A stretch of DNA of 64,000 bases from Candidatus Pacearchaeota archaeon (GTDB taxonomy: Archaea; Nanobdellota; Nanobdellia; Pacearchaeales; GW2011-AR1). The translations under genes and the position numbers were made by a program. Location of the stretch: assembly GCA_016866975.1 (NCBI GenBank), contig VGKP01000001.1, positions 54,454 through 118,453 on the forward strand. The letters are read 5' to 3'. Below are positions 37,218-64,000 of the stretch, in pieces (position 1 is the stretch's first letter; the number at the start of each line of letters is the position of its first letter). The notes under the pieces are model-generated. The model was not told where the DNA came from. It was given only the letters and a program-made list of their open reading frames with translations, and did not search any database.

Positions 37218-37337
37218 ATCAAAAAAACGATGCGCCACTGCGGCTTAAAAGCCGCAGTTTGATGCAGGCGCTCGTTTTTTGGATGCTCAAGGAACAACTC
37301 CAGCTTAAAAGCTGGAGTTTTAGTCAAGTTCCTTGAC
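37218..37337 (-). mobile_element. 120-bp non-autonomous IS200/IS605-type element (PATE-like), copy 1, intergenic
   Basis: TTAT|GTCAAGG...TTTTGAT|; two hairpins; identical to copies 2 and 3 apart from single substitutions. Confidence 0.85.
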
Positions 37338-37355
37338 ATAAAATATAAGGATCTC

Positions 37356-47163: not shown

Positions 47164-47247
47164 TGCGGGAGCGAGGATTCGAACCTCGGAAGGCACTAAG
47201 CCACAGCCACCTCAAGGCTGCCCATTAGACCGCTCTGGCACCCCCGC
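47164..47247 (-). tRNA. tRNA-Leu(GAG)
   Basis: GCGGGGG/CTCCCGCA acceptor, CAGCC-TTGAGGT-GGCTG anticodon arm, long variable arm, GGTTCGAATCC. Confidence 0.95.
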
Positions 47248-47318: not shown

Positions 47319-48959
47319 ATGAGGAAAAGTTTGTCAATTGCTGAAATGTTTAAGTATTGTCCTGATGCCATTCATCTGGATGGATTCCCTCACTCTCCTT
47401 TTTCTTCGAAACTCTTCCGAGGATTGGGTCAGGAAGAAAGTCTAGCACAGTACGGAAAGCCTGACGAGCAAGGAAAAATGATTGTTATCCCCAGTTTCCC
47501 TCAAGAATATATCCAGCAAAGGCAACAATTCTTCCAACGCCTTGGGCGATCCCATCATATGAGAAAATCTGTCTTTGAACGTACATTTCCTAAGAGAAAG
47601 CCAAGAAAATACAATGCAGAAGAATTTATTGGGTTCTGTTCAGAAGTGAGACAGACGCTTGCGGATGCCCGTCAGGAACTTTTCAGATTGAGAGGAATCC
47701 CTGAAAAAAAGGGAATTTTGGACAGAATAAGAAGATTTGAAGAGGCGTATGGAAAACAATGCTGTACACTGGAACAGCTGGACAATATGAATACCTTTCT
47801 TATCAATACGGATAATGGCTCCATTGAAGGTTGGAGAACCCCTGGGAGAGAAAGCGGGCATCAGACCTCTTATGTCAAGGAACTTGACTAAAACTCCAGC
47901 TTTTAAGCTGGAGTTGTTCCTTGAGCATCCAAAAAACGAGCGCCTGCATCAAACTGCGGCTTTTAAGCCGCAGTGGCGCATCGTTTTTTTTATAATGGGG
48001 GAAATGCGTTAAAAAAGGTAAGAGTCACCATGAAACGTGCTGCACTGGAAGCCGTCGAAGGTGGAAAAGAAGATTTTAAAGCGAATATTTTTAGATTTGT
48101 AAGAGGGGAATTCAGTTTGAGAAAGGAAGAAAACCTTCGAGGGCTCGTTGAGAAAATAGCAGCACCTGTACGATTCCATAGAAATTATGGGAGGTTCATG
48201 ATGGGATATGCCTACCAAGAAAAAGACGATTGGGATCCTATGAATGATCCTGAACCTGAAGAAGACTTTCCTCTGCCCCATCATGACATTCCTGAACTTG
48301 TTACGCCCCAGTTTAAAGATTACTATCGGCTTGAGAATATGTTTCCCCTTACACTTTCACAACCCTATGAGGGACCTAGACAATTTGTCCCTATCAGTTT
48401 TAGTACCAAACGAGGCGAAAGAAAATTTATGCTTGCGGGTCTGCACAGCGGAGGAAAGAGTTTTTTTTTAGAAAACATTGTTCTCGGCTCGATTATGTGG
48501 CAAACAGGAGAACAAACTCCAGGAGACGCTATTATAGCTCCTTACTACAATCGCATTTTCTATTTTAGGAATGTATCTAATCGTGGAGGCGGGAAGGGTA
48601 AGGCAGAACAGGAACTTCGCCACATTTATGGCCATATTAAGAATAGTAATAAAGAAGACTTGATTGTTTTGGATGAGTTTCTCGATTCTGCAGAAGCTGA
48701 AGTTGCAGAATCCATGGGATCCAAATTAATGGATGGATTATACAAGAGTGAAGCAACCGTTTTTATCTCATCACATCGAGCACATGATTTTAGAAAGCTT
48801 CAAAAACAGGGATGGACAATTTATACACCTGAGCATACAGTTGCCTCCAGTGGTAAGATTGTACCGTGCAGGACCTTGCGAAGAGGTCTACCCAACAAAG
48901 AAATTAATGTTCTATTTATGAATCAACGATATGCAGATATTTTCAGTCAAGGACAGTAG
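47319..48959 (+). pseudogene. MutS-related P-loop ATPase gene split by the 120-bp element (track ORFs 47319..47891 + 47973..48959)
   Basis: GLHSGGKS Walker A, LIVLDEF Walker B, FISSH; removing 47874-47993 gives one ~506-aa frame (…HQTSY|NGGNALK…). Confidence 0.75.
47874..47993 (+). mobile_element. 120-bp element, copy 2 (intragenic)
   Basis: TTAT|GTCAAGG...TTTTTAT|; terminal TGAT changed to TTAT. Confidence 0.85.
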
Positions 48960-61577: not shown

Positions 61578-62624
61578 TCATAGTTTCCATTGATGAAGAG
61601 ATGTGTTTTTTTGAGATTGAAAATACCTTCTTTTTCCAAGGCCTTGCTTAAGACGATGATATTTCCTGAACTCGCAGAGAGCGCCCTCGATGTTTGTAAG
61701 GGAGAGAAAGGGGATGTTAGATGATGCTTTTTTGAATGAGATGTCTATCCATGGAAGAGGTTCATTTAGATCCTTGTTTATTGTTGGAAGAATCTCTTCC
61801 TGGAGTTTGTGTAGGTGTTTAAGATCAAAAAAACGATGCGCCACTGCGGCTTAAAAGTCGCAGTTTGATGCAGGCGCTCGTTTTTTGGATGCTCAAGGAA
61901 CAACTCCAGCTTAAAAGCTGGAGTTTTAGTCAAGTTCCTTGACATAAATATATTGCTCTTTCTGATTTATGCTTTTACCTGCAAGTATCTCCAGACCCCA
62001 CTTTGCTCCAGGGCCTATGTTTACAAAGTCGTTGTCTGTCCAACCCTGTTTGAAAAATTTTAGGTAAGATAAATCGGTCCAGATTTCGCAGGCAAGGAAA
62101 GGGCCTACCATTGGTATTGACTGGAGAACATGGAGAGATTCTTCAGGAGTTTTTGCAATATCTATCCTACTTATCAATGCTTGCCAATTTGTAACCTGTA
62201 AATTATTTATTATACTCTCATGTTTCTTGGTCCCTTTATCACCTGATGAAATGAGATATGCGTCATTTAATATTATTTTACCTTGTTGCTGCATCTTTGA
62301 AAATGATTCAATCATCCTATTCTTGCAAGATTCATCAATTTTGTCCAATATCTTTATTTTGAGGTCCTCGTAAATCCCTCTCCTGTTGAAAAACCTGAAG
62401 AATACTATGTTAAGAAGCAGCTTTTCTCTATCCCTCTCTTTATCTACTCTATCCATCAAATATATTGTGCAGGCATCCAGTTCCCTATACATATTGATTA
62501 TCTTGAATTTCTGCAAAACCGCGTCTGAAGTCCACGGCTAAGGGAGATTTTGGACAAAACGCTTGTGGTATATTAACTGACGAGAATAGATAAATGAAAA
62601 AAACTCTTTCTCTAGAGGTGTCAT
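61578..62624 (-). pseudogene. DNA base-hypermodification-associated gene (aGPT-Pplase1/5-hmdU DNA kinase helical domain-like), with an in-frame TAG and an element insertion
   Basis: FFSFIYSRQLIY...LP*PWTSDAVLQKFK..N.YRELD...FRFFNR...GPFLACEIWTDL...NDFVNIGPGA...IEGALCEFRKY; TAG at 62538-62540; element at 61824-61943. Confidence 0.65.
61824..61943 (-). mobile_element. 120-bp element, copy 3 (intragenic)
   Basis: TTAT|GTCAAGG...TTTTGAT|; one C>T stem change; removal gives ...EQYIY|LKHLH... Confidence 0.87.
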
Positions 62625-62671: not shown

Positions 62672-63826
62672 TCACTTGCCTAGCAACTTCTTTGCTATAT
62701 CAAGATCTTGATTTCCCAGCTTCAGGAAAAAGGATTTACCTTCGAAACTCTCGGCTGATTGAGATTTCATAGAGTAGATGTTTGCACGATTAACATATGC
62801 GTCTGCATTATGGGGGTCTTTTTGTATGATTTCTGTATATTCTGAAATCGCCTCATCCCAGCGATATGCCATCTCATAAAACCTGGCGCTAGTCATCGAA
62901 GCACCCAATCTCTTCCACGAAAGATAATCTGCAGCTACTGAGAAGACTGGCGCACCTTCAAAGAGATATTGCTCAGGGGTTATCTGAGATTTAAATGACT
63001 TAAGTTCTCCTGGTTTCGGAGCATCAGGAGTATATTTTCTGGCAACTTCAGTATAGACGATATGTGCTGCCTGCTCTACAAGCTGCTCGTGATTGTAGAC
63101 AATAAACTTCCAGTCTTCATCCTTGCTTTCAGGGTAATTTTTCTTCCATTGGTCTTTTAATTCGTTGAGATAATACGATGAAGGCAGAGTAGCCCCTGCA
63201 GTAGTCTCCCAATTGATGATGGTGCCATCGTCGTCATGCCATCTTACAAACATATGGCCTGGAAGATAGACCGCTTTGAGAGGGAACTCCCTGTTCTCTG
63301 CAATACTGAGATAAATGTAACTTCTCAAATCGCAATCAAGTTTATGATTTCTCAATCCAGTATTCAATAGAACGCAGGCCTCTGACTTAAATCCATTTTC
63401 TTCCAGAATCCCATGAATGATCTGCAAAGAATTTGTAGCATCTTGTAGAGTATATTTTTCCTTATAAGGTATCTTTTCTCTGGCCTTGTCCAGAATTTTG
63501 TCTAACGTATGCTTATCCTCTGCAGTTGCACCCACTCCTTGTTCCATCCTTAGCACAGCGTGCCCAATAGTCAGAGGTGGAAGTAAATCGAGAATTCCTG
63601 CCAGACTAAGACTTGTGAAAAATGGCTCATATTCAGGTTTTCCGCTATCTGGCCCGATGGGTGATGAATCAACTAGCTTTGACTGTTCTTGTGGAGAAAC
63701 ACGGGTTAAAATTGTGGAGCGTTTCTGGTAAGGAGGATAGAAATTGCAGCTTGTTGCAATAAATGCGCCTGCTAGCAAAGAGGCAGAGAGCAACTGAGCA
63801 AGAGTCTTTCTCATGATTTTTTTCAC
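62672..63826 (-). CDS. Secreted/lipoprotein transglutaminase-like protein with TPR tail
   Basis: Signal plus IATSC lipobox-like motif; KLDC...LPGHMFVRW...NWETT; C-terminal TPR; GTG start. Confidence 0.72.
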   Translation of the reverse strand: MKKIMRKTLAQLLSASLLAGAFIATSCNFYPPYQKRSTILTRVSPQEQSKLVDSSPIGPDSGKPEYEPFFTSLSLAGILDLLPPLTIGHAVLRMEQGVGATAEDKHTLDKILDKAREKIPYKEKYTLQDATNSLQIIHGILEENGFKSEACVLLNTGLRNHKLDCDLRSYIYLSIAENREFPLKAVYLPGHMFVRWHDDDGTIINWETTAGATLPSSYYLNELKDQWKKNYPESKDEDWKFIVYNHEQLVEQAAHIVYTEVARKYTPDAPKPGELKSFKSQITPEQYLFEGAPVFSVAADYLSWKRLGASMTSARFYEMAYRWDEAISEYTEIIQKDPHNADAYVNRANIYSMKSQSAESFEGKSFFLKLGNQDLDIAKKLLGK

Positions 63827-63874: not shown

Positions 63875-63992
63875 ATCACAAAAACGATGCGCCACCTCGG
63901 CTTAAAAGCCGAGGTTTGTTGCAGGCGCTCGTTTTTGGAGATGCTCGGGAACCACCACACCTTGAAAGGTGTGGTTTTCATCGGTTCCCGAC
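63875..63992 (-). mobile_element. Divergent 118-bp element, copy 4
   Basis: TTAT|GTCGGGAACC...GTGAT|; same architecture with compensatory stem changes. Confidence 0.8.
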
Positions 63993-64000
63993 ATAAATAT

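What the first reader, a model, noticed from the sequence alone, without database searches (positions are those of the whole stretch)
37218..37337. Minimal 120-bp transposon family made only of two IS200/IS605-type end hairpins, with a readable target code
Seen: four copies (37218-37337, 47874-47993, 61824-61943, 63875-63992), each 3' of TTAT with no target duplication. Each starts GTC and ends TGAT (TTAT in copy 2). Each has two hairpins, CTCCAGC/GCTGGAG and CTGCGGC/GCCGCAG, inside longer bulged stems. Established: the HUH transposase TnpA cuts 3' of a flanking tetranucleotide (CL) and of the element's last tetranucleotide (CR). These are selected by 4-nt guides at the 5' foot of each hairpin (IS608: AAAG/TTAC, GAAT/TCAA; guide nt1, 2, 4 pair with site nt2, 1, 4). 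Here the guides are AAAA (predicts TTxT = TTAT) and CAAA (predicts TGxT = TGAT), which fits exactly, including in the divergent copy. Inference: a recently active, near-minimal non-autonomous (PATE-like) element mobilised in trans in a DPANN genome. No tnpA is present in this window.
Basis: partly seen in the sequence, partly recalled or inferred. Interest (0 to 1): 0.85.

Follow-up and report, generated by a model that had tools for sequence, protein, structure and literature searches.

The report
Hairpin mini-transposon of IS200 type
A 120-base, gene-less, two-hairpin jumping element has spread to more than 50 places in a tiny DPANN archaeon; its landing site can be read from four bases in its own DNA, as in the bacterial IS608 model, so it is a well-documented new member of a known kind of selfish DNA.

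Summary
All four copies exist at the stated coordinates. The 0.8-Mb archaeal genome holds 52 complete copies (75 profile hits), and 21 full-length copies are 97.5-100% identical. Copies lie 3' of TTAT (79% of 89 copies from all genomes; background 0.85%). They end in TGAT and have no target duplication or inverted terminal repeats. All four stems covary across species.

- Two window copies split genes. Removing exactly 120 nt restores frames collinear with intact orthologs.
- Copy orientation follows GC skew (43 of 52 copies, p = 2e-6), not gene direction.
- The genome does encode IS200-type TnpA, outside the window. That IS family has the same hairpins, some letter-identical.
- The IS family obeys the same guide rule: GAAA with TCAT in 17 of 17, GAAG with TCAC in 9 of 9.
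- In the mini-element, left ends with guide CAAA sit after TG-- in 7 of 9 cases, against 6 of 89 for guide AAAA.

Caveats: the code is a strong tendency, not a law. No autonomous element with the complete ends was found. Excision was not observed.

This is a PATE-like IS200/IS605 derivative, a known kind. I found no description for DPANN. This scan reported the family before on other DNA.

The parts
47874..47993 (+). Copy 2, subfamily A, 120 nt. It sits inside a MutS-V-like ATPase gene. Its last tetranucleotide is TTAT, a mutated form of TGAT.
47870..47873 (+). TTAT, the left cleavage/target tetranucleotide (CL). It is flank, not part of the element.
   Evidence: The intact G016 ortholog has GTT TAT at the aligned codon.
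47890..47893 (+). Left guide AAAA (element nt 17-20), directly 5' of the inner left hairpin. It predicts TTxT.
47894..47913 (+). Left inner hairpin CTCCAGC-TTTTAA-GCTGGAG, the presumed TnpA binding site. It is enclosed by the outer stem 47875-47883 / 47920-47928.
   Evidence: Hairpins of the same type, some identical, occur at the ends of C10-type IS200.
47950..47953 (+). Right guide CAAA (element nt 77-80). It predicts TGxT.
47954..47973 (+). Right inner hairpin CTGCGGC-TTTTAA-GCCGCAG. It is enclosed by the outer stem A6CGAGCGCC / GGCGCATCGT6 with a bulged A.
47990..47993 (+). Right cleavage tetranucleotide (CR), the last 4 nt of the element. It is TGAT in 49 of 52 G000 copies and TTAT here.
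37218..37337 (-). Copy 1, subfamily A, between convergent genes. Flank TTAT at 37338-37341 (minus strand), end TGAT at 37218-37221.
61824..61943 (-). Copy 3, subfamily A, inside a 5-hmdU DNA kinase-like gene. Flank TTAT at 61944-61947 (minus strand).
63875..63992 (-). Copy 4, subfamily B, 118 nt, with compensated stems. It lies about 48 nt upstream of the start of ORF 62672-63826. Flank TTAT at 63993-63996 (minus strand).
47319..48959 (+). Gene split by copy 2. Exact excision gives a 507-aa frame.
61578..62516 (-). Gene split by copy 3. Exact excision gives a 273-aa frame (PF18723 HMUDK_hel).

Best explanation
The repeat is a non-autonomous IS200/IS605-type ('peel-and-paste', single-strand) transposable element, i.e. 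a PATE-like mini-element. It consists only of a left and a right end joined by the linker GAGCATCC. Each end has an inner 7-bp GC-rich hairpin, which is the presumed binding site of a Y1 HUH transposase (TnpA) supplied in trans. Four bases 5' of each hairpin foot act as a guide. On single-stranded DNA the guide pairs with the cleavage tetranucleotide: guide nt 1, 2 and 4 pair with site nt 2, 1 and 4. The left guide AAAA selects TTAT in the flank, so the element is cut and inserted 3' of TTAT. The right guide CAAA selects the element's own last four bases, TGAT. Excision should give a single-strand circle with the joint TGAT|GTC and a sealed donor. Integration occurs 3' of a single-stranded TTAT, preferentially on one replication strand. 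Each inner hairpin sits inside a second, outer stem that is also kept by compensatory change; the role of that stem is unknown. The most likely transposase is the IS200-type TnpA on contig C10, or a close relative of it. What is shown: the element's anatomy, target specificity, lack of duplication, insertion into genes, strand bias, stem covariation and guide/site covariation, plus shared hairpins with an IS that encodes an apparently intact TnpA. What is inferred: TnpA binding and cleavage, the circular intermediate, and which TnpA acts.
For: 1. Target. TTAT flanks 70 of 89 independent AAAA-guide copies, against a background of 0.85% (binomial p ~1e-126). Flank position 2 varies among otherwise near-identical copies, so the tetranucleotide is flank and not element.
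2. Ends. There is no target duplication and no inverted terminal repeat.
3. Gene insertions. Copy 2: removing exactly 120 nt gives a 507-aa frame that is 221/500 identical over its full length to the intact G016 protein, which has TTAT at the aligned codon. Copy 3: removal gives a 273-aa frame collinear without a gap with the G016 and G004 orthologs.
4. Strand bias. The top strand lies on the G-rich strand in 43 of 52 copies (Fisher p = 1.8e-6). There is no link to gene direction (p = 0.26). IS200/IS605 members insert into the lagging-strand template (PMC5027513).
5. Structure. 97.2% of cells are paired. 23 of 37 pairs change on both sides (148 cells, against 5-17 in slid controls; 0 of 500 shuffles reach this). 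All four helices are supported and G:T cells are few. The DNA fold has z = -10.4.
6. The rule itself. The IS608 pairing rule is confirmed from PMC3201880. It fits both ends of the mini-element. It also fits the C10-type IS200 (AAAT with flank TTAA; GAAA with end TCAT) and the right end of the second IS200 (GATG with TCAC).
7. Covariation in the autonomous family. GAAA pairs with TCAT in 17 of 17 right ends and GAAG with TCAC in 9 of 9.
8. Covariation in the mini-element. Flank nt 2 is G in 7 of 9 CAAA-guide copies against 6 of 89 AAAA-guide copies (p = 4e-6). Flank nt 2 is A in 3 of 8 TAAA-guide copies against 6 of 89 (p = 0.025).
9. Transposase. C10 TnpA scores 77.8 bits on the NCBIfam IS200 model (cut-off 55) and has HUH at residues 71-73 and Y136 in YVRNQ.
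10. Shared hairpins. Hairpins of the C10-type IS family are of the same type as the element's inner hairpins, and some are letter-identical to them. Examples are CTCCACACTTTAGTGTGGAG, CCGCACCTTTTAAGGTGCGG and CTCCACCCTTTAGGGTGGAG.
11. Hybrid copy. One G000 copy of the IS left end (contig C21) carries the mini-element's right tail TGGCGCATCGTTTTTTTGAT directly after its hairpin.
Against: No autonomous element with the complete ends was found. The complete ends would be the GTCAAGG outer stem, the GAGCATCC linker and the GGCGCATCGT7GAT tail. I looked in G000, in 19 TnpA loci of relatives and in 54 public loci; only the inner-hairpin region matches. Spacing differs: the cleavage site lies 20 or 18 nt from the hairpin foot at the left and 16 nt at the right in the mini-element, against 12 or 16 nt and 5-6 nt in the IS. 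If the outer stems are closed, the guides and cleavage sites are held apart, so the stems must open for the proposed pairing. Several relatives with many copies show no Y1 transposase in the MAG: G008 (89% complete), G005 and G016. The code is not deterministic: 21% of AAAA-guide copies lie after other T-N-A-T sites. Two CAAA-guide copies have TGAG, which mismatches at nt 4, and two have TTAT. Two right guides read CAAG while the end stays TGAT. The covariation counts are not phylogenetically independent.
Confidence: 0.85

Rival explanations
1. The mechanism is the same, but the transposase is a different one. The element would be moved by the second, multicopy IS200-type TnpA, whose body is missing from the bin. 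Alternatively it is moved by an unassembled 'master' element, or by a TnpA carried on a virus, plasmid or host, that has exactly the mini-element's ends. The C10-type TnpA would then play no part.
For: The second IS breaks four contig ends, so it is multicopy and probably active. Its relative in G003 appears to lie after TTAT with guide AATA, the same target as the mini-element. G003 and G013 carry many mini-element copies and the second-type TnpA. No C10-type locus has the outer-stem ends. MAGs with many copies lack any detected TnpA.
Against: The second type's hairpins (CCCCACGG-TCTTG-CCGTGGGG) do not resemble the mini-element's inner hairpins. C10-type hairpins are of the same type and sometimes identical. 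The target tetranucleotide is set by the DNA guide and not by the protein, so a shared TTAT says little about which enzyme acts. A scan of viral contigs with the element core gave only a chance match.
Confidence: 0.25
2. The repeats are a REP/BIME-like (REPIN) system. A domesticated, single-copy REP-associated tyrosine transposase (RAYT) would maintain and spread paired palindromes that serve the host.
For: The element is two related palindromes in one unit at high copy number, mostly between genes. The stems are kept by selection. A Y1 transposase is present. Earlier notes of this scan filed similar DPANN repeats under REP/RAYT.
Against: C10 TnpA passes the IS200 model (77.8 bits, cut-off 55) and fails the REP-associated model (31.2 bits, cut-off 80). 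It lies within its own IS with defined ends (TTAA|...TCAT|) and has at least two genomic contexts. The two hairpins are in direct orientation, not inverted, and have distinct left and right functions. The element inserts after a specific flanking tetranucleotide and lands inside genes. Copies are near-identical, as after a recent burst.
Confidence: 0.05
3. The repeat is a host-function element that spreads by recombination or as a gene. It could be a small structured RNA gene, a bidirectional transcription terminator (A-run, stem, T-run), or a folded attC-like or Xer-type recombination site of the cassette systems noted elsewhere in this genome.
For: Covariation is strong in four helices. The right module has an A6...T7 terminator-like form. 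Most copies are intergenic. Earlier notes describe folded attC-like modules in this genome.
Against: No Rfam family matches. Orientation follows the replication strand and not the neighbouring genes. Copies interrupt coding genes with in-frame stops. One-sided G:T changes are rare, as expected for DNA pairing. Near-identical copies lie after a specific tetranucleotide with precise 120-nt boundaries. attC sites vary in sequence and sit at cassette ends beside an integrase, which is not the pattern here. A terminator effect as a by-product is not excluded.
Confidence: 0.05

Closest known systems
PATEs (palindrome-associated transposable elements) of Haloquadratum walsbyi and other haloarchaea (Dyall-Smith et al. 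2011, PMC3119063)
   Same: Neither has terminal inverted repeats or a target duplication. Both have near-terminal palindromes related to those of IS200/IS605-type transposons. Both are too short to encode a transposase and lie beside a conserved targeting oligonucleotide at the 5' side. Both have 'homogeneous' high-identity families, and both are invaded by other small repeats.
   Different: The published PATEs relate mainly to IS1341/IS605-type (tnpB-bearing) elements of haloarchaea. This family relates to a tnpA-only IS200 clade of DPANN archaea. Each inner hairpin is nested in a second, covarying outer stem. The guide/cleavage code is readable and shows natural covariation.
IS608 of Helicobacter pylori (IS200/IS605 family), the mechanistic model
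   Same: Both have subterminal hairpins. Both have a 4-nt guide 5' of each hairpin foot that pairs with the cleavage tetranucleotide in the same register. Both insert 3' of the left tetranucleotide without duplication. The left spacing is similar: 19 nt in IS608, 20 or 18 nt here. Both show a bias toward one replication strand.
   Different: The mini-element has no tnpA or tnpB. Its sites are TTAT and TGAT, where IS608 has TTAC and TCAA. The right spacing is 16 nt against 10 nt. The inner stems are perfect, without the extrahelical T. The outer stems are extra. The host is an archaeon.
C10-type IS200 elements of Woesearchaeota, Pacearchaeota and Nanoarchaeota (public MAG records)
   Same: The hairpins are of the same type and in some cases identical. 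The loops are the same (TTTTAA, TTTCAA, TTT-A), the guide register is the same, and the same nested modules occur in hairpin loops.
   Different: The IS encodes TnpA. It targets TTAA (or ATAA) and ends in TCAT or TCAC, with shorter spacers (12 or 16 nt at the left, 5-6 nt at the right). The mini-element has its own conserved start (GTCAAGG), linker and tail, which were not found in any IS copy.
REP/BIME (REPIN) elements and RAYT transposases of bacteria (PMC3333891, PMC8266576)
   Same: Both are high-copy, gene-less palindromic DNA associated with a Y1 HUH enzyme.
   Different: See the membership test. The TnpA here is of IS200 type. The hairpins are direct, not inverted. Cleavage sites are distant tetranucleotides chosen by guides. 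The element lands in genes.

Membership tests
IS200/IS605-derived non-autonomous element (PATE) | No terminal inverted repeats | tested here: met
   The termini match their reverse complement at only 5 of 8 and 7 of 20 positions.
IS200/IS605-derived non-autonomous element (PATE) | No target-site duplication | tested here: met
   Flanking direct repeats of 2-8 nt are no more frequent than in permuted flanks. Exact 120-nt excision restores two genes without gain or loss of residues.
IS200/IS605-derived non-autonomous element (PATE) | Near-terminal (subterminal) palindromes at both ends | tested here: met
   DNA fold z = -10.4. Four helices are supported, with 23 of 37 pairs changed on both sides.
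IS200/IS605-derived non-autonomous element (PATE) | Too short to encode a transposase | tested here: met
   The element is 118-121 nt. In the frame set by both disrupted genes (codons start at the element's first base) it reads GTC AAG GAA CTT GAC TAA, a stop.
IS200/IS605-derived non-autonomous element (PATE) | Palindromes related to those of IS200/IS605 transposons | tested here: met
   Inner hairpins are of the same type as, and sometimes identical to, the end hairpins of C10-type IS200. The outer stems, start and tail have no counterpart in any IS found.
IS200/IS605-derived non-autonomous element (PATE) | Insertion 3' of a specific tetra- or pentanucleotide that stays outside the element | tested here: met
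   TTAT flanks 70 of 89 copies, and T-N-A-T flanks 87 of 89.
IS200/IS605 family mechanism (IS608 model) | Cleavage tetranucleotides are chosen by 4-nt guides 5' of the hairpin feet (guide nt 1, 2, 4 with site nt 2, 1, 4) | tested here: met
   The rule is taken from PMC3201880. It fits both ends here and three IS ends in the same genome. Covariation is GAAA/TCAT in 17 of 17 and GAAG/TCAC in 9 of 9. CAAA guides go with TG-- flanks in 7 of 9 cases against 6 of 89. The match is statistical, not absolute.
IS200/IS605 family mechanism (IS608 model) | Orientation bias with respect to replication (lagging-strand template) | tested here: met
   43 of 52 copies have the top strand on the G-rich strand (p = 1.8e-6). 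That the G-rich strand is the lagging-strand template in this archaeon is inferred and was not shown.
IS200/IS605 family mechanism (IS608 model) | Mobilisation by a Y1 HUH TnpA through a single-strand circle | not testable with these tools
   An apparently intact TnpA is present in the genome. No circle junction or excision product could be sought in raw reads, because the runs are held only as contigs.
REP/BIME with RAYT | The associated Y1 enzyme is of the REP-associated (RAYT) type | tested here: not met
   NF047646 REP_Tyr_transpos scores 31.2 bits (cut-off 80). NF033573 IS200 scores 77.8 bits (cut-off 55).
REP/BIME with RAYT | Units are single short palindromes, paired in inverted orientation, almost only extragenic | tested here: not met
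   The two hairpins are in direct orientation with distinct ends. At least two copies lie inside genes.
Described RNA family (Rfam 15) | Match to a curated covariance model | tested here: not met
   No hit on any of the four copies at E <= 1.
Integron attC-like or Xer cassette site | Sits at cassette boundaries beside a tyrosine recombinase; the sequence varies and the fold is conserved | not tested
   This was considered only because of earlier notes. Near-identical copies, TTAT specificity, strand bias and insertion into genes argue against it.

The most novel reading that the evidence does not exclude
Two features may go beyond the textbook PATE. (a) Natural retargeting. Single-base changes in the left guide (AAAA to CAAA or TAAA) have redirected new insertions from TTAT to TGAT or TAAT in wild populations. 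If so, the family records in nature the 'programmable target' behaviour so far shown only by engineering IS608. (b) Nested architecture. The TnpA-type hairpin always sits inside a second, independently covarying outer stem, and further small hairpin modules insert into the loops. This could point to an undescribed requirement. The outer clamps might drive cruciform extrusion so that ends and targets become single-stranded without replication. Or there might be a modular 'hairpin-in-hairpin' assembly process with its own rules.
Probability: 0.25. Interest if true: 0.6.

Novelty: new member of a known kind. Interest (0 to 1): 0.45.

Why it matters
First, the element shows recent transposon activity in a strongly reduced symbiont-type genome. 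Complete copies make up about 0.8% of 0.8 Mb (52 copies of about 120 nt). At least two genes in this window alone were knocked out, one of them a 5-hmdU DNA kinase-like DNA-modification gene.

Second, the IS608 guide/cleavage-site code, worked out in a bacterium, holds in a DPANN IS200 clade and in its passenger element, with natural covariation. Ends and targets of such elements can therefore be annotated from sequence alone.

Third, the family causes assembly breaks in these MAGs. Many contig ends lie in copies, so recognising it helps genome closure and helps avoid mis-annotated split genes.

Fourth, a 120-nt substrate with a candidate cognate 155-aa TnpA is a compact system for testing single-strand transposition in archaea.

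Tried and rejected
1. Population-level empty sites or circle junctions. The runs holding this DNA are lake-water metagenomes kept only as contigs. I laid four runs on a 20-kb stretch with nine copies. Contigs simply break at each copy, no 120-nt skip appeared, and the three joints are repeat-mediated. This is uninformative.

2. Exact in-silico empty junctions of copies 3 and 2 in public metagenome contigs: no match.

3. Base-exact empty sites between species. Relatives are only 65-75% identical in coding flanks. L054 against C21 shows only that G000 lacks the element at a roughly orthologous spacer.

4. An autonomous element with the complete mini-element ends. None was found in 19 TnpA loci of relatives or in 54 public loci; only the inner-hairpin region matches.

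5. TnpB. It was not found in the genome.

6. Viral carriage. One viral contig matched a 20-nt core pattern, but the match lies in coding sequence, with no profile hit and no TnpA.

7. A family-wide pattern search sampled one genome per genus and found almost nothing. The specific left end is essentially restricted to the genus.

8. My first automatic reading of right guides in the IS family mis-anchored on nested hairpins. I replaced it with an arm-anchored reading.

9. Rfam: nothing on the element.

Full report
OBSERVATION. Copy 2 (47874-47993) is on the plus strand; copies 1, 3 and 4 are on the minus strand. Aligned in one orientation, each is preceded by TTAT and starts GTC. Copies 1, 3 and 4 end in TGAT, and copy 2 ends in TTAT. 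Copy 4 is a ~83% subfamily (B) in which both inner stems differ by paired substitutions. As single-stranded DNA the element folds into two long bulged hairpins (-42.2 kcal/mol, z = -10.4).

CENSUS. The window is part of an 805,708-bp, 31-contig assembly that is 89% complete.
- The organism is an archaeon with a full-length archaeal 16S gene.
- The closest public TnpA relatives come from Woesearchaeota, Pacearchaeota and Nanoarchaeota MAGs. The DPANN assignment therefore fits.
- nhmmer finds 75 hits. There are 52 complete copies. 21 full-length copies are 97.5-100% identical to copy 2.
- There are two main subfamilies (A and B), chimeras of their halves, a third right-end type, and longer variants that carry extra small hairpin modules inside a loop.
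- Many contigs end inside copies.
- The family occurs in 13 of 16 congeneric genomes searched. Outside the genus I found it in one genome of the same family (G024) and as a weak match in one of the same order (G032), at 75-89% identity.

ENDS AND TARGET.
- In 47 G000 copies with both flanks, the four bases before the element are T 46/47, T 38/47, A 46/47, T 47/47.
- Over all genomes, TTAT precedes 70 of 89 AAAA-guide copies, against a background of 0.85% per position.
- Position 2 of the tetranucleotide varies among otherwise near-identical copies, so it is flank and not element.
- 49 of 52 copies end in TGAT.
- Flanking direct repeats are at chance level, and there is no terminal inverted repeat.

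PROOF OF INSERTION. Two window copies lie inside genes.
- Copy 2. G016 has one 542-aa open frame where G000 has 193 aa. Removing exactly 47874-47993 gives a 507-aa frame that aligns over its whole length with the intact 526-aa G016 protein, 221 of 500 residues identical. The intact G016 gene reads GTT TAT|TTA at the aligned codon, so it has a TTAT there.
- Copy 3. G016 and G004 have 302- and 307-aa frames against 203 aa in G000. Removing exactly 61824-61943 gives a 273-aa frame that is collinear with both orthologs through the junction, without a gap.
- The disrupted genes are a MutS-domain-V-like ATPase gene (weak match) and a gene with a 5-hmdU DNA kinase helical domain (PF18723, 2e-28).

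STRAND. The element's top strand lies on the locally G-rich strand in 43 of 52 copies (Fisher p = 1.8e-6). Orientation is unrelated to the majority gene strand (p = 0.26). IS200/IS605 members are known to excise from and insert into the lagging-strand template (PMC5027513). That the G-rich strand is that template here is an inference.

STRUCTURE. I aligned 28 distinct copies from G000 and ten congeneric genomes and counted pairs on the four-helix structure.
- 97.2% of cells are paired.
- 23 of 37 pairs have changes on both sides: 148 cells, against 5-17 in the slid controls.
- None of 500 shuffles reaches these values.
- Both the inner and the outer stems are supported.
- One-sided G:T cells are rare, which fits pairing selected in DNA.
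- Rfam has no match.

THE CODE.
- The rule. In IS608 the cleavage tetranucleotides are read by guides 5' of the hairpin feet: C-3 pairs with G-35, T-4 pairs with A-34, and T-4 contacts A-2. CL lies 19 nt from the left foot and CR 10 nt from the right foot (PMC3201880).
- The fit here. AAAA predicts TTxT and CAAA predicts TGxT, and both are observed. The spacers are 20 nt (A) or 18 nt (B) at the left and 16 nt at the right.
- The rule also fits the autonomous elements of this genome. The C10-type IS200 has left guide AAAT after flank TTAA, and right guide GAAA before end TCAT. The second IS200 has right guide GATG before end TCAC.
- Across 26 readable right ends of the C10-type family, GAAA goes with TCAT in 17 of 17 and GAAG with TCAC in 9 of 9. 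By eye, left ends with AAAT follow TTAA and those with ATAT follow ATAA.
- Within the mini-element, I sought left ends whose first guide base is not A without regard to flank. CAAA guides follow TG-- in 7 of 9 cases, against 6 of 89 for AAAA (p = 4e-6). TAAA guides follow TAAT in 3 of 8, against 6 of 89 (p = 0.025).
- The relation is strong but not absolute. These counts are not free of shared ancestry.

TRANSPOSASE.
- The genome encodes Y1 transposases outside the window. There is a complete 155-aa gene on C10. It scores 77.8 bits on the NCBIfam IS200 model (cut-off 55) and 31.2 bits on the REP-associated model (cut-off 80). It has HUH at residues 71-73 and Y136 in YVRNQ.
- Fragments of a second, multicopy type lie at four contig ends.
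- The assembly's 127-nt overlaps give the C10 element two upstream contexts, C2 and C21. These define its left boundary, TTAA|TTGAGAAGAAAT-[CTACCAGCC TTT AGGCTGGAG].
- In the C21 copy the hairpin is followed by the mini-element's own right tail, TGGCGCATCGTTTTTTTGAT.
- In relatives and public MAGs, the end hairpins of this IS family are of the same type as the mini-element's inner hairpins, and several are letter-identical to them.
- No IS copy has the mini-element's outer stems, start, linker or tail. Some copy-rich MAGs show no TnpA.

COMPARISON AND NOVELTY.
- The element meets every published defining feature of a PATE (PMC3119063). It works like IS608.
- PATEs as small as 52 bp are known, and so is their invasion by other small repeats.
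- IS200/IS605 is the most widespread IS family in archaea (PMC13343696). I found no description of such passengers in DPANN archaea in the papers searched.
- This scan had already reported the same family on other pieces of this genome and in other DPANN genomes. I used those notes only as leads.

VERDICT. It is a new member of a known kind, of moderate interest.

Noticed in passing
G000 contigs C1:1-70, C20 start, C6:1-225, C12 end (outside the window): A second, multicopy IS200-type element breaks four contigs. Its right end is GATG[CCCCACGG TCTTG CCGTGGGG]AGCT TCAC|, which also fits the guide rule. On C6 it lies 400 nt upstream of the 16S gene. Its body and left end are missing from the bin.
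   Followed up: partly
G000 C2:40336-40556, C13:7454-7674, C3:37452-37668, C24:4549-4717, C8:3-126; relatives L106-L111, L116: Longer variants carry about 50-100 nt of small two-hairpin modules (GTCAAGGATT..AATCCTTGAGC plus TCAGAAA..TTTCTGA) inserted in an inner hairpin loop. The same nesting occurs in right-end hairpins of autonomous C10-type IS (L122, L126, L133). This recalls SMR-A repeats invading PATEs in Haloquadratum. How these modules move is unexplained.
   Followed up: partly
window 61578-62516 (-): The gene knocked out by copy 3 has a 5-hmdU DNA kinase helical domain (PF18723, 2e-28), a thymidine-hypermodification type of gene that is intact in G016 and G004.
   Followed up: partly
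window 47319-48959 (+): The gene knocked out by copy 2 encodes a ~507-aa protein with a weak MutS-domain-V-like ATPase part and an N-terminal part that matches no family. It is intact in G016.
   Followed up: partly
G000 C21:100-200 (reverse strand), against the C2 end: Two copies of the C10-type IS left end differ only in a ~20-nt segment after the hairpin. The C21 copy has the mini-element's right tail TGGCGCATCGTTTTTTTGAT there. It is a hybrid, which suggests recombination or aberrant joining between the IS and its passenger.
   Followed up: partly
flanks of 47 G000 copies: The target context extends beyond TTAT. T is enriched at -7 and -6 (35 and 32 of 47) and at +2 and +3 (32 and 29 of 47). 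This could be extra base contacts or just AT-rich spacers.
   Followed up: no
L124, L139, L147, L159 (public C10-type IS loci): Some autonomous IS left ends also enclose the inner hairpin in an outer stem (GGCGCGGGAAA...GAGAGCGCC). Nested stems are therefore not unique to the mini-element.
   Followed up: no
window 47165-47247 (-): There is a weak tRNA-Sec-like Rfam match (24.7 bits, E = 0.72, below the gathering score). It is probably an ordinary tRNA or chance.
   Followed up: no
G000 C3:33083-53082: Nine copies lie within 20 kb, all in the same orientation, in a region of negative GC skew. This is a local hot spot.
   Followed up: partly
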